Shown here: positions 26,784 to 33,239 of the stretch, in pieces
How the letters are laid out: every line of letters starts with the position of its first letter
How positions within the stretch are numbered: the first letter of the stretch is position 1
Source: a virus
Lineage: Duplodnaviria > Caudoviricetes
Length of the DNA: 35,904 nucleotides
IMG/VR virus record: IMGVR_UViG_3300032250_000105
Span: 1 to 35,904 of that record
Strand: one strand, 5' to 3'
Made by a program: the position numbers and the translations under genes
The notes under the pieces: model-generated
Database searches by the model: none
The model's input: the letters and a program-made list of their open reading frames with translations, nothing else
What the model was told of the DNA's origin: nothing

Positions 26784-26807
26784 GCCCCCATTTATTGGGG
26801 GTTTTTT
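26784..26807 (+). terminator. Intrinsic terminator at the end of the late operon
   Basis: GCCCCCA-TTTAT-TGGGGGT followed by a T run. Confidence 0.85.
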
Positions 26808-26872
26808 ACTTTTATGTTGATTGATGTTTTTATGAATAAATTATCCTAGTGTTGGCCAAACGCGAAAACCAC

Positions 26873-26905
26873 GCCCCTATATTTCTATATCGGGGGCTTT
26901 TTTTT
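26873..26905 (+). terminator. Second intrinsic terminator (loop TTTCTA)
   Basis: GCCCCTATA-TTTCTA-TATCGGGGGC followed by T8. Confidence 0.8.
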
Positions 26906-26907
26906 CC

Positions 26908-27001
26908 TATATTTGCACCGTGTAGATTTACAGTTTTTTTTAGTTTTGCATCTGAATTAGTTTAATTTACCCCGAGCGTTTCCACGTTTGGGGTTTTTTT
27001 T
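26908..27001 (+). ncRNA. Candidate small RNA unit: -7 element, U-rich body of about 80 nt, terminator
   Basis: TATATTTG at 26908-26915; no ORF; ends in ACCCCGAGCG-TTTCCA-CGTTTGGGGT plus a T run, with two G-U pairs favouring the + strand. Confidence 0.5.
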
Positions 27002-27063
27002 GTCTTTTTTTTTAATTTTTTTTCTCAGTATTGGCGAGGGTTTCAAAGGTTTTTTATCTTTTT

Positions 27064-27117
27064 TTTGAAAATTCTTTGAAAAATGTTTTGTAGTTTCAAA
27101 AAGGCGGTATATATTTG
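27064..27117 (+). promoter_or_regulatory. Strong early promoter P1
   Basis: TTTG (27087-27090), 19 nt, TATATTTG (27110-27117); preceded by 11-bp phased TTTGAAAA repeats. Confidence 0.9.
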
Positions 27118-27148
27118 CTCTATCAATAACAACTAAAAAACTAAAAAA

Positions 27149-27367
27149 ATGGCACAAGTTACTAAAATCACTAAAAGAGAATTACACTTACAACTAGTAG
27201 AAATTGAAAACACTTTAGACGCTTTTAAATTTGCTGAAAACCTTATGAACGCTTTGAAAAGCGAAGTTATCAACTATAACGAGTACGATATGTTTAGCGG
27301 CGATTTATACTACCATTGCTTAAAAAACAATATTAGAACTACTAACGAGTGCGTAAACTTATTTTAA
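27149..27367 (+). CDS. Early hypothetical protein (cassette 1)
   Basis: 72 aa with AAAACTAAAAAAATG start context, downstream of P1. Confidence 0.8.
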   Translation: MAQVTKITKRELHLQLVEIENTLDAFKFAENLMNALKSEVINYNEYDMFSGDLYYHCLKNNIRTTNECVNLF

Positions 27368-28946: not shown

Positions 28947-29642
28947 ATGAACGAACTAATTAAGACCCCCGAGCAAAGCGTATTTAAAGCCGACGAGCAA
29001 TTTAACCACGCGCAAAGAGTAGCCAAAATGCTAGCCTCTAGTAACCTTATCCCTAAAGACTTTCAAGGTAATATACAAAACACTATGATAGCCTTGGAAA
29101 TAGCCAATAGGATAGGCGCAAGCCCGTTAATGGTAATGCAAAACCTATACATAGTACACGGTAAGCCGTCTTGGTCGTCTAGTTTCATAATTGCGGCTAT
29201 TAACAGTAGTAAGAAATTTAGCCCATTACGCTTTGAAATTAGCGGCGAGGGCCTAGACAAAGGCTGCATAGCTTGGGCATTAGAAAATGGCACGAATGAG
29301 CGCCTAGAAAGCCCCCGCGTTACTATGGCAATGGCTAAAGCCGAGGGGTGGAGTACTAAGAGCGGTAGCAAGTGGGTAACTATGCCCGACCTTATGCTAA
29401 GATACCGCGCGGCTAGTTTCTTTGGCAGACTTTACGCCCCCGAAATATTAATGGGTATGTACACAGTAGAAGAGGTAATAGACATTAAAGCCGAGCCTAT
29501 TAAAATAGATAAAGAGGCCGAGCGTATTGAGTTAATGATTAACGACGCCGAAACTATAGAAGATTTAACGGCCCTAGAGGCCCACGTAAGCGAGGCGCAG
29601 TTAGAACTATTTGAGGCTAAAAAAGTAGCGTTAAAAAAATAA
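28947..29642 (+). CDS. Single-strand annealing recombinase (RecT/Bet-like)
   Basis: VMQNLYIVHGKPSWSS, MAKAEGW, W..MPDLMLRYRA and PEILMGMYT motifs; close to an exonuclease gene. Confidence 0.75.
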   Translation: MNELIKTPEQSVFKADEQFNHAQRVAKMLASSNLIPKDFQGNIQNTMIALEIANRIGASPLMVMQNLYIVHGKPSWSSSFIIAAINSSKKFSPLRFEISGEGLDKGCIAWALENGTNERLESPRVTMAMAKAEGWSTKSGSKWVTMPDLMLRYRAASFFGRLYAPEILMGMYTVEEVIDIKAEPIKIDKEAERIELMINDAETIEDLTALEAHVSEAQLELFEAKKVALKK

Positions 29643-29696
29643 TTTGAAAAAAGTTTGAAAAAAGTTTTGTGGTTTCATTATAAGGGTGTAATATTG
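29643..29696 (+). promoter_or_regulatory. Early promoter P2 (copy of the P1 element)
   Basis: TTTG (29666-29669), 19 nt, TAATATTG (29689-29696); phased TTTGAAAA repeats upstream. Confidence 0.85.
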
Positions 29697-29726
29697 CTAT
29701 ATCAATTAACAATAAAACTAAAAAAA

Positions 29727-29966
29727 ATGGAAAAAAATGAAATTAAACTAGGAGAATTTATTAAAGCTAATTATAAAAGATACCCTATTTTCGGAATAGT
29801 AGTAGAAATTAAAAAAGACATATTAATAATAAATTTTTGCACACCTATTTACAACGAAGAAAAAAATAGTTATTCAGATTATCGTATAGAAAAAAATCTT
29901 GTAAATATTAGCAAAAAAAATATAATACAAATAGGTTTAAACGAAAACGAAACTATACTAAATTAA
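29727..29966 (+). CDS. AT-rich hypothetical protein (cassette 2)
   Basis: ATG in AAAACTAAAAAAAATG context; the upstream TTG extension in the ORF track is promoter DNA. Confidence 0.75.
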   Translation: MEKNEIKLGEFIKANYKRYPIFGIVVEIKKDILIINFCTPIYNEEKNSYSDYRIEKNLVNISKKNIIQIGLNENETILN

Positions 29967-31986: not shown

Positions 31987-32090
31987 TATATTTGTAAAAA
32001 TCTCGTTACGAAGTAGTAGCCGAAACGAGGTTAAATTTTAACTTTAAAGGGTTAATAACGCTACTACCGTTGTTAGCCCTTTTACTTTTT
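31987..32090 (+). ncRNA. Candidate cis-regulatory leader RNA (two hairpins with complementary loops) upstream of the initiator
   Basis: -7 element TATATTTG at 31987-31994; hairpin 31999-32032 (loop AAGTAGTAGC); 15-bp hairpin 32046-32082 (loop CTACTAC) followed by TACTTTTT. Confidence 0.65.
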
Positions 32091-32813
32091 ATGGCAAAAG
32101 ATACCTTTTATTTTTCCCACGATTATAACGCTAGAACTGATAGCAAAATAAAAAAACTTATAAGAGTACACGGCTACGAGGGCTACGGTATTTATTGGGC
32201 CATAGTTGAGGACTTGTATAATAATGCGAACGCATTGCCAACGGACTACGATAGCATTGCGTTTGACTTGCATACGCAAAGCGAACTTATAAAAAGCATA
32301 CTTAACGACTTTGATTTATTTGATTTAACCGCTGATTATTTTGGCAGCAATTCAGTTTCTAGAAGATTAGAAGAGCGCGAAAATAAGAGTAACAAAGCCA
32401 AAGAAAGCGCTAAAAAGCGTTGGGATAATGCGAACGCAATGCGAACGCATAGCGATAGCAATGCTATAAAGGAAAGGAAAGGAAAGGAAAGGAAAGAAAA
32501 GGAAATAGTAATAAACACAAACGGCATAAAACCTAACACCGATTATAAACTAGAACTAAACGAAATACAAATAGGCGCGGCGGTACAGTATATGGCGATA
32601 GCTAAGCAAACCAAGGTAACCACAGACACTATAAAAGGCCTTTGGGAAACCTTTAAGGTTAAAGAGTTTACGGGCGCCAAGCATTACAACAACGAAGGCG
32701 ATATATTTACTCATTTTATGAATACGTTGAAATACGAAAAGATAGACGAGCAAAAGCCGAATATTATAAAAACTAACGACGATAAGGCCAAAAAGTTACT
32801 AGGTATAGAATAA
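32091..32813 (+). CDS. Replication initiator (DUF4373 / Lin1244-like N-terminal domain)
   Basis: YFSHDYNARTD and GYEGYGIYWAIVEDL motifs; internal iterons; DnaB downstream; ATG start at 32091. Confidence 0.82.
   Translation: MAKDTFYFSHDYNARTDSKIKKLIRVHGYEGYGIYWAIVEDLYNNANALPTDYDSIAFDLHTQSELIKSILNDFDLFDLTADYFGSNSVSRRLEERENKSNKAKESAKKRWDNANAMRTHSDSNAIKERKGKERKEKEIVINTNGIKPNTDYKLELNEIQIGAAVQYMAIAKQTKVTTDTIKGLWETFKVKEFTGAKHYNNEGDIFTHFMNTLKYEKIDEQKPNIIKTNDDKAKKLLGIE
32223..32288. repeat. Degenerate 11-bp tandem array (6 units) inside the initiator gene
   Basis: AATGCGAACGC, ATTGCCAACGG, ACTACGATAGC, ATTGCGTTTGA, CTTGCATACGC, AAAGCGAACTT. Confidence 0.6.
32427..32505. repeat. Putative replication origin: 11-bp iterons followed by a (GGAAA)n tract
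   Basis: AATGCGAACGC twice, ATAGCGATAGC, AATGCTATAAA, then GGAAA x5, GAAAA, GGAAA; lambda-O-like placement inside the gene. Confidence 0.75.
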
Positions 32814-32858
32814 ATTTTAAAAAAATCTTTCTAGCATTGGCAAGGCTTTCAGCCTATT

Positions 32859-32912
32859 TTTAAAAATAATTTGAAAAAAGTTTTGTGGTATCAAAAAGGC
32901 GGCGTAATATTG
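32859..32912 (+). promoter_or_regulatory. Early promoter P3 (copy of the P1 element)
   Basis: TTTG (32882-32885), 19 nt, TAATATTG (32905-32912); spacer closely related to those of P1 and P2. Confidence 0.85.
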
Positions 32913-32948
32913 TGTGGTCAATATGACACAACGCAAAAAACTAAAAAA

Positions 32949-33239
32949 ATGCAAAACGCAAACTACACTACTTACACTATCTACACAGTAACAATTAACT
33001 ACAACAATAAAGAAAATAAAAATTTAGAATACAATTACGATACTCGTAATGATTTAAAAGATGCTTTTCAATCGGCTTTAGATAAGTATAGGTTAATCGT
33101 ATCTGATAAAGCCGATATGTGCGCTATAATGTCTGTTAATAAATGTTTTTATACTATATCTATAACACGCAGTATTTACATAGAAAATTTATTATCTGAT
33201 AAAGAAGTAATGAGAAACGTAAATTTAAAAAACTATTAA
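32949..33239 (+). CDS. AT-rich hypothetical protein (cassette 3)
   Basis: ATG in AAAACTAAAAAAATG context downstream of P3. Confidence 0.75.
   Translation: MQNANYTTYTIYTVTINYNNKENKNLEYNYDTRNDLKDAFQSALDKYRLIVSDKADMCAIMSVNKCFYTISITRSIYIENLLSDKEVMRNVNLKNY

What the first reader, a model, noticed from the sequence alone, without database searches (positions are those of the whole stretch)
31987..32093. Kissing-loop leader RNA in front of the replication initiator
Seen: a -7 element places the likely transcription start near 32000. Hairpin 1 is CTCGTT-A-CG [AAGTAGTAGC] CG-A-AACGAG. Hairpin 2 is AAAGGGTTAATAACG [CTACTAC] CGTTGTTAGCCCTTT, 15 bp with two G-U pairs that work only on the + strand RNA, followed by TACTTTTT and the ATG. 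GTAGTAGC (32013-32020) is perfectly complementary to GCTACTAC (32060-32067), which covers the whole loop of hairpin 2. Hairpin 2 resembles a terminator and ends 8 nt before the start, whose context is U-rich, unlike the A-rich starts typical elsewhere. Known analogy: loop-loop pseudoknots control rep translation in IncI/IncB plasmids. Inference: a cis-acting RNA switch setting initiator levels; I cannot match it to a named family.
Basis: partly seen in the sequence, partly recalled or inferred. Interest (0 to 1): 0.76.

Follow-up and report, generated by a model that had tools for sequence, protein, structure and literature searches.

The report
Kissing-loop attenuator before phage replication gene
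Just ahead of its likely DNA-replication gene this uncultured phage encodes a two-hairpin RNA sequence whose loops are exact complements, a design that over a hundred related leaders keep with changing letters, and it likely acts as a switch on a predicted transcription stop that rations how much replication protein is made.

Summary
A Bacteroidota -7 box (31987) precedes hairpin 1 (31999-32032), a 13-nt linker, hairpin 2 (32046-32082), a U-tract and the ATG of a Lin1244_N initiator. In blind pattern searches the loop 7-mer had its perfect complement in 41 of 41, 110 of 111 and 4 of 4 promoter-bearing leaders, against 1 of 79 and 0 of 8 without a promoter. Both stems covary in the window's own subfamily. 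Across 115 distinct leaders there are 16 loop codes, yet the loops stay 38-44 nt apart, which points to pairing in cis. Best reading (0.5): a kissing-loop-gated intrinsic attenuator that works like the guanidine-IV riboswitch, probably without a ligand. The IncI analogy is only partial: no antisense promoter, leader peptide or third site was found, and 26 complete carriers lack an integrase. There is no Rfam match, but a bulk screen lists an unvalidated 49-nt candidate before the same genes. This scan found the class before on other DNA many times. No expression data could be tested.

The parts
31987..31994 (+). Bacteroidota sigma-ABfr -7 promoter box (TAnnTTTG), directly after the stop of the upstream ORF; predicted start 31999-32000
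   Evidence: Sequence. Consensus and spacing from PMC6847099 passages. The box tracks the element in homologs; 6 of 12 closest metagenome relatives carry only a variant box.
31999..32032 (+). Hairpin 1: 9-bp stem, 1x1 mismatch, 2-bp cap, 10-nt loop (two unpaired A, 7-nt code, C)
   Evidence: Fold; 5 of 11 pairs change on both sides in 10 subfamily members, 99% of cells paired
32013..32019 (+). Loop-1 code, 7 nt, the 5' partner of the kissing helix (C32020 can add an eighth pair)
   Evidence: eighth Watson-Crick pair possible in 40 of 102 leaders only
32033..32045 (+). 13-nt linker; its 3' end can form a weak alternative hairpin (32038-32055, about -2.8 kcal/mol) with the 5' base of hairpin 2
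   Evidence: Present in 12 of 14 subfamily C leaders (7.3 expected from linker shuffles), 16 of 39 in B (3.2 expected), 0 of 49 in A: suggestive only.
32046..32082 (+). Hairpin 2, predicted intrinsic terminator stem, 15 bp with two G-U pairs, -17.9 kcal/mol
   Evidence: 9 of 11 counted pairs change on both sides in the subfamily
32061..32067 (+). Loop-2 code, exact complement of loop 1, 41 nt downstream of it
32080..32090 (+). U-tract after the last G-C pair (6 U in the first 8 nt); predicted 3' end about 32086-32088; also the whole unpaired start context
   Evidence: At least 6 U in the first 8 nt in 102 of 102 leaders; last G-C pair 9-16 nt before the ATG
32091..32813 (+). Regulated gene: 240-aa putative replication initiator with a Lin1244_N domain
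   Evidence: Pfam PF14297 E 3e-11; phrog_2562 replication initiation protein E 2e-15; GenBank phage hits annotated replication initiation protein
32221..32464 (.). Iteron-like direct and inverted repeats inside the initiator gene (two blocks, 32221-32260 and 32425-32464), candidate origin
   Evidence: 83% over 40 nt; role as origin inferred by analogy to lambdoid O genes (recalled)

Best explanation
The element is a conserved two-hairpin 5' leader whose loops are exact complements, and it likely works as a kissing-loop-gated transcription attenuator for the replication module. Shown: promoter box, both stems, the 7-bp loop-loop helix, the fixed spacing, the U-tract, and the position at the head of the replication genes. 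Inferred: RNA polymerase starts at about 31999 and hairpin 1 folds at once. Loop 2 would leave the polymerase just as it reaches the U-tract. If loop 1 captures loop 2, the stacked rod (about 35 base steps) would outreach the 13-nt linker and keep the base of hairpin 2 open. The polymerase would then read into the initiator, and the start region would also be less occluded. If hairpin 2 zips first, transcription would stop near 32087 and release an RNA of about 88 nt. The loop letters are free to change, so a small-molecule ligand is unlikely. The balance is probably kinetic (pausing, Mg2+, elongation factors) and rations the initiator during infection.
For: Blind tests with the complement not in the pattern: 41 of 41 promoter-bearing against 1 of 79 other matches; 110 of 111; 4 of 4 against 0 of 8, including a compensatory pair change in the window's own subfamily, L745. 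Covariation: 14 of 26 stem pairs in subfamily C; in B, 5 of 7 kissing pairs once the misaligned window row is discounted, 0 of 500 shuffles. Loop spacing is 38-44 nt in 115 distinct leaders although hairpin-1 arms run from about 4 to 13 nt and hairpin-2 arms from about 9 to 20 nt, which argues for a constraint in cis. A U-tract follows the last G-C pair in 102 of 102, although adenines at -3, -6, -12 and -13 favour translation in Flavobacterium and the window has none. Hairpin 2 is the most stable of six terminator-like hairpins compared, and the subfamily model picks up ordinary host terminators with similar tails. Precedent: in guanidine-IV the kissing loop competes with the growing terminator through a shortening linker (PMC11611296 Discussion; PMC7736828 passages).
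Against: No transcript data were tested. The direction (kiss = read-through) is borrowed from one precedent; 7-nt loops can kiss with both stems intact (recalled for ColE1). In subfamily B the linker is about 20 nt, so the tension argument is weak there. The published 49-nt candidate DNAVirus_187, probably hairpin 2 of subfamily A, was scored 'no terminator' by RNIE. The U-tract and the ATG are only 9-16 nt apart, so anchoring to the hairpin or to the start cannot be separated cleanly. One natural leader, L329, has a mismatch in the kiss. The 115 leaders fall into only about four scaffolds, so the independent sample is small. 14 of the 102 rows were pre-filtered to spacing 36-44.
Confidence: 0.5

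Rival explanations
1. Translational gate: hairpin 2 mainly blocks ribosome loading, and the kiss opens its base to free the start region, as the IncI pseudoknot activates repZ translation.
For: The last G-C pair lies 9-16 nt (mostly 10-12) before the ATG in 102 leaders. Bacteroidota initiation depends on low structure at -20 to +20. RNIE did not call DNAVirus_187 a terminator.
Against: A U-rich, A-poor context is kept in 102 of 102 leaders, against the A-rich preference of these hosts. There is no leader peptide or Shine-Dalgarno element to uncover.
Confidence: 0.2
2. Self-counting in trans: the terminated RNA of about 88 nt accumulates, and its loop 2 captures loop 1 of nascent leaders. This would block the kiss in cis and shut off the initiator as genome copies rise or when a phage with the same code superinfects.
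For: No other partner exists: no conserved antisense box, no third code-tracking site in 166 genome pairs, and an HTH_3 match in only 2 of 26 complete carriers. In subfamily B the code changes on a nearly fixed scaffold (six codes) and shuffles freely among downstream genes. P4 CI RNA is a leader-derived trans factor (PMC4825925 passage).
Against: In subfamilies C and A the code is more conserved than the stems (13 of 14, partly fixed by the search pattern, and 35 of 54 share one code), unlike a diversifying key. A released RNA could kiss itself. Carriers show no integrase, recombinase or ParA, so a need for copy control is not evident.
Confidence: 0.15
3. The kiss compacts and stabilises the terminated RNA, which is itself the product (structural RNA or protein decoy); the initiator is made by leak or by a phage antiterminator.
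For: Strong hairpin 2 (-13 to -19 kcal/mol in subfamily C); strictly Watson-Crick kissing helix; conserved loop-flanking motif in B and C.
Against: In the 19 relatives whose downstream genes were read the leader sits directly before an initiator-type gene or an HNH inserted ahead of one, 9-16 nt from an ATG. A free-standing RNA would not need that.
Confidence: 0.12
4. DNA-level inverted sites bound by the initiator or another protein (an autoregulatory operator), with no RNA role.
For: The loop complementarity is strictly Watson-Crick and so reads equally as an inverted repeat spaced about four helical turns apart.
Against: Both flanking stems covary with many G-U pairs and fold better on the + strand (74 of 102 leaders; 10 of 10 hairpins 2 in C). 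One code precedes unrelated proteins, and one protein family follows several codes.
Confidence: 0.03

Closest known systems
Guanidine-IV riboswitch (GGAM-1; PMC7736828, PMC11611296)
   Same: A 5' hairpin loop kisses the loop of an intrinsic terminator shortly before a start codon; the model is competition between kiss and terminator through linker length.
   Different: Guanidine-IV loops hold highly conserved ligand-binding nucleotides and sit before sugE-type transporter genes. Here the loops take 16 codes, the genes are phage initiators, no Rfam model matches and no ligand is evident.
DNAVirus_187 and related candidates of Fremin et al. 2023 (PMC10690425, supplementary tables)
   Same: A 49-nt candidate structured RNA, 122 sequences, mostly freshwater, within 25 bp upstream of 54 DUF1376 and 36 DUF4373 genes: the gene mix and about the hairpin-2 length of subfamily A found here.
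   Different: It is too short to hold both hairpins, unvalidated and scored as no terminator, and the main-text passages seen do not mention it. Its sequence could not be read, so identity is inferred.
IncI-alpha/IncB/IncK plasmid rep control (repZ pseudoknot and Inc antisense RNA; PMC10724649, PMC7646527 passages)
   Same: Loop-based pairing in the leader of a replication initiator; small loop changes could set specificity.
   Different: That system uses a counter-transcribed antisense RNA and translational control (leader peptide recalled). Here no conserved antisense promoter, no leader ATG and a terminator-like hairpin were found.
Phage P4 immunity (CI RNA with seqA and seqC; as summarised in PMC4825925)
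   Same: Complementary segments within the leader of replication genes, linked to premature termination without a protein repressor.
   Different: P4 has three sites and a processed trans RNA in a lysogen. Here there are two sites only, and carriers lack integrases.

Membership tests
Guanidine-IV riboswitch | 5' hairpin loop pairs with the terminator hairpin loop | tested here: met
   Covarying 7-bp helix
Guanidine-IV riboswitch | Intrinsic terminator stem plus U-tract before the gene | tested here: met
   By sequence only; 102 of 102 with at least 6 U of 8; function untested
Guanidine-IV riboswitch | Highly conserved ligand-binding loop nucleotides | tested here: not met
   16 different loop codes in 115 leaders
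Guanidine-IV riboswitch | Upstream of guanidine-related transporter genes; match to a curated model | tested here: not met
   Downstream genes are initiators or HNH; no Rfam hit
Guanidine-IV riboswitch | Ligand-dependent read-through | not testable with these tools
   Needs in vitro transcription
IncI/IncB rep leader | Intramolecular long-range pairing in the initiator leader | tested here: met
IncI/IncB rep leader | Counter-transcribed antisense RNA | tested here: not met
   Minus-strand -7 boxes: 9 hits in 100 leaders, none nearer than 125 nt inside the gene; window +191. A non-consensus promoter is not excluded.
IncI/IncB rep leader | Leader peptide coupled to rep (feature recalled) | tested here: not met
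   No ATG in the window's leader; upstream ORFs not conserved
IncI/IncB rep leader | Control at translation | not testable with these tools
   Needs fusions
P4 CI immunity | One RNA segment complementary to two targets (seqA, seqC) | tested here: not met
   No third site locally or genome-wide in 166 pairs
P4 CI immunity | Temperate or plasmid context | tested here: not met
   0 of 26 complete records with PF00589, PF07508 or PF13614
P4 CI immunity | Processed leader RNA acting in trans | not testable with these tools
   Needs RNA data
DNAVirus_187 (Fremin 2023) | Directly upstream of DUF1376/DUF4373 genes in freshwater phages | tested here: met
   that PF14297 Lin1244_N was formerly DUF4373 is recalled
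DNAVirus_187 (Fremin 2023) | Sequence and structure match to its model | not testable with these tools
   Alignment archives unreadable

The most novel reading that the evidence does not exclude
A protein-free, antisense-free copy counter: the aborted leader transcript is itself the repressor, its loop 2 capturing loop 1 of nascent leaders, so that the 7-letter loop codes act as incompatibility or superinfection-exclusion groups among Bacteroidota phages that have no repressor or integrase.
Probability: 0.15. Interest if true: 0.85.

Novelty: new variant of a known kind. Interest (0 to 1): 0.62.

Why it matters
Terminator control by a kissing loop has one well-studied case, guanidine-IV. Here the same design appears, apparently without a ligand, at the head of the replication module of many small freshwater-type Bacteroidota phages that lack the usual repressor and integrase. 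It offers a natural library of 16 loop codes on about four scaffolds with one conserved spacing, which makes the steric antitermination model directly testable. It may also explain how such phages time replication, and it could give compact orthogonal regulators for Bacteroidota.

Tried and rejected
Rfam: no gathering hit in the window or in 20 related loci; best E 1.1 locally. Sequencing runs: no RNA holder listed. A pattern from the window's hairpin-1 base gave 57 viral matches, none with a promoter. A code-only pattern gave mostly chance matches; 2 of 120 (L624, L712) look like further scaffolds. MAFFT misaligned the window row with subfamily B, so its cells were discounted; a covariance model from subfamily C later linked C and B (E 5e-9 to 3e-6) and the L044 type (5e-4), but not A. 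No cultured GenBank phage carries the leader (best E 5). In 151 genomes of one host order the model found 3 hits, all plain terminators: not found in those searched. Antisense promoter, third site, leader peptide and temperate genes were tested and not found. An extended anti-terminator helix from hairpin 1 into the 3' arm of hairpin 2 is possible in the window but not conserved in subfamily B (read). An in-frame alternative start in the 3' arm occurs in 8 of 14 C leaders but not above chance in A or B. Literature searches found no paper describing this element. The supplement of PMC5737381 and the alignment archives of PMC10690425 could not be read and may bear on novelty.

Full report
Context. 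The window is a complete 35,904-bp virus record with direct terminal repeats. Terminase, portal, head and tail genes are followed by RecT, an exonuclease, NinG, an initiator, a methylase and DnaB, all on the + strand. A Bacteroidota host is inferred from the promoter box and from the best genome hits of the initiator. The ORF at 32091 has a Lin1244_N domain (PF14297, E 3e-11) and matches phrog_2562, replication initiation protein. It contains iteron-like repeats and is followed by a terminator-like hairpin at 32843-32855.

Observation. Hairpin 1 runs 31999-32032, starting at the predicted transcription start (4-5 nt after the -7 box; PMC6847099 passages). Hairpin 2 is 32046-32082. The fold has z = -3.3, and a 7-nt complement between hairpin loops arose in 2 of 2000 shuffles.

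Homologs through the protein. Of 160 loci fetched plus the window, 131 distinct upstream regions were usable. 42 had a -7 box, and 28 of these had a complement of at least 7 nt, against 1 of 89 without a box and 18 of 1310 shuffles. 24 of the 28, the window included, share this architecture; 4 (L014, L020, L038, L043) are other designs. 14 promoter-bearing regions were negative, among them L044, whose 8-nt loops the detector missed (seen).

Blind tests. A pattern that left the 7-mer free gave 120 loci: 41 of 41 with a promoter carry the exact complement, against 1 of 79 without. A linker-only pattern (subfamily B) gave 120 loci, 111 with a promoter; 110 of 111 are perfect, with six codes, and L329 has one mismatch. 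Subfamily A gave 108 loci, 104 usable, 45 distinct, all complementary. The window's own subfamily C came from metagenomes with both loops fixed by the pattern: 12 of 14 hits are genuine, and 6 of the 12 have only a variant promoter box. There the stems are the blind part: 14 of 26 pairs change on both sides in 10 sequences (0 of 500 shuffles). With the loop free, 4 of 4 promoter-bearing C hits are complementary (0 of 8 others), and L745 shows a compensatory change of one kissing pair. In B, 5 of 7 kissing pairs covary after discounting the misaligned window row, with no G-U intermediates. A covariance model of C finds all six B leaders given and the L044 type, but not A.

What is conserved. 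115 distinct leaders carry 16 codes, and the loops lie 38-44 nt apart. The search range was 25-69 nt for A and B; 14 rows were pre-filtered to 36-44. Arm lengths trade off: A about 4 + 15 + 20, B about 11 + 20 + 10 (counted to the outer G-C pairs), window 13 + 13 + 15 (all pairs). The leaders fall into only about four scaffolds, so the independent sample is small. A U-tract (at least 6 of 8) follows the last G-C pair in 102 of 102, 9-16 nt before the ATG. The + strand folds better in 74 of 102. The downstream gene varies: Lin1244_N, DUF1376-like, phrog_270-like, or an HNH inserted before the initiator. A whole-genome scan found one leader per genome in 20 of 21 records, plus one stray hit.

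What is absent. There is no conserved minus-strand promoter (9 hits in 100 leaders, none within 125 nt). There is no third code-tracking site (0 in 166 genome pairs with different codes) and no leader ATG in the window. Among 26 virus records at least 90% complete, none has a tyrosine integrase, a serine recombinase or ParA, and 2 have an HTH_3 match, 1 over the cut-off. These carriers look non-temperate as far as those four families can tell.

Mechanism. Shown: anatomy, covariation, spacing, tail and position. Inferred: hairpin 2 plus U-tract terminates, and the kiss competes with the base of hairpin 2. With recalled textbook dimensions (about 2.7 A per base pair, at most about 6 A per single-stranded nucleotide), a straight kissed rod of about 35 steps (about 95 A) exceeds the 13-nt linker (about 78 A). 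Bending would ease this, and in B the linker is slack. This is the steric model proposed for guanidine-IV (PMC7736828 passages; PMC11611296 Discussion). A weak hairpin between the linker and the base of hairpin 2 may help in B and C (12 of 14 against 7.3 expected; 16 of 39 against 3.2; 0 of 49 in A). I commit to kiss = read-through at 0.5. Rivals: translational gate 0.2, self-inhibition in trans 0.15, stabilised stand-alone RNA 0.12, DNA operator 0.03. Against the trans-key idea, codes in A and C are more conserved than the stems; for it, six codes sit on one scaffold in B.

Prior knowledge. No Rfam family matches. Eight literature searches found no description. However, the supplementary tables of PMC10690425 list DNAVirus_187 (49 nt, 122 sequences, mostly freshwater, before 54 DUF1376 and 36 DUF4373 genes, RNIE 'no') and five other candidates before DUF4373 or DUF1376 genes. 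It is probably hairpin 2 of subfamily A; I could not see its sequence. Papers seen: PMC11611296 (abstract, Discussion); PMC7736828 (abstract, passages); PMC4825925, PMC10724649, PMC7646527, PMC6847099 (passages); PMC10690425 (passages, table rows); PMC5737381 (nothing; supplement unreadable). Earlier notes of this scan describe the same class on other DNA and gave me the guanidine-IV and P4 leads; they are not counted as evidence.

Verdict. A real, widespread and essentially undescribed kissing-loop leader. It works most like guanidine-IV but is not a member of that family, nor of the IncI or P4 systems. New variant of a known kind; interest 0.62.

Noticed in passing
window 27060-27149, 29640-29728, 32865-32949: Three similar promoter-like cassettes (T-rich run, TTTG box, -7-like box, A-rich leader) each precede a small ORF of unknown family; one sits between the initiator and the methylase/DnaB genes. 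Seen by eye.
   Followed up: no
window 26908-27001: A -7 box followed about 60 nt later by a G-C hairpin (-16.5 kcal/mol) and a U-run, with no ORF between: a possible stand-alone small RNA. Two more terminator-like hairpins lie at 26784-26895.
   Followed up: partly
window 32221-32260 and 32425-32464: Iteron-like repeats inside the initiator gene, a candidate origin.
   Followed up: partly
L329:254-347 (-): Natural leader with one mismatch in the kissing helix, intermediate between two subfamily-B codes; a possible recombinant or evolutionary intermediate.
   Followed up: partly
L003, L014, L016, L020, L038, L043, L057, L232 upstream of the initiator: Other leader designs before the same initiator family, in which a 5' segment complements an arm or the tip of a long terminal hairpin.
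   Followed up: no
window 32070-32072 and subfamily C: An in-frame TTG, ATG or GTG is hidden in the 3' arm of hairpin 2 in 8 of 14 subfamily C leaders, and a U four bases after loop 2 is kept even when unpaired (10 of 10 aligned; L745 is an exception); not seen in B.
   Followed up: partly
L015 and L065 (also L007, L075): Nearly the same subfamily-A leader heads initiators of distant clades (68% against 39% identity to the window's protein), suggesting that leader and initiator are swapped as modules.
   Followed up: partly
L587:8182-9349; L614, L615: An HNH gene is inserted between the leader and the initiator in G010; two subfamily C leaders precede ORFs that look like homing endonucleases by eye.
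   Followed up: partly
L624, L712: Same loop code on further scaffolds with short hairpin 1 and an 8-nt loop.
   Followed up: no
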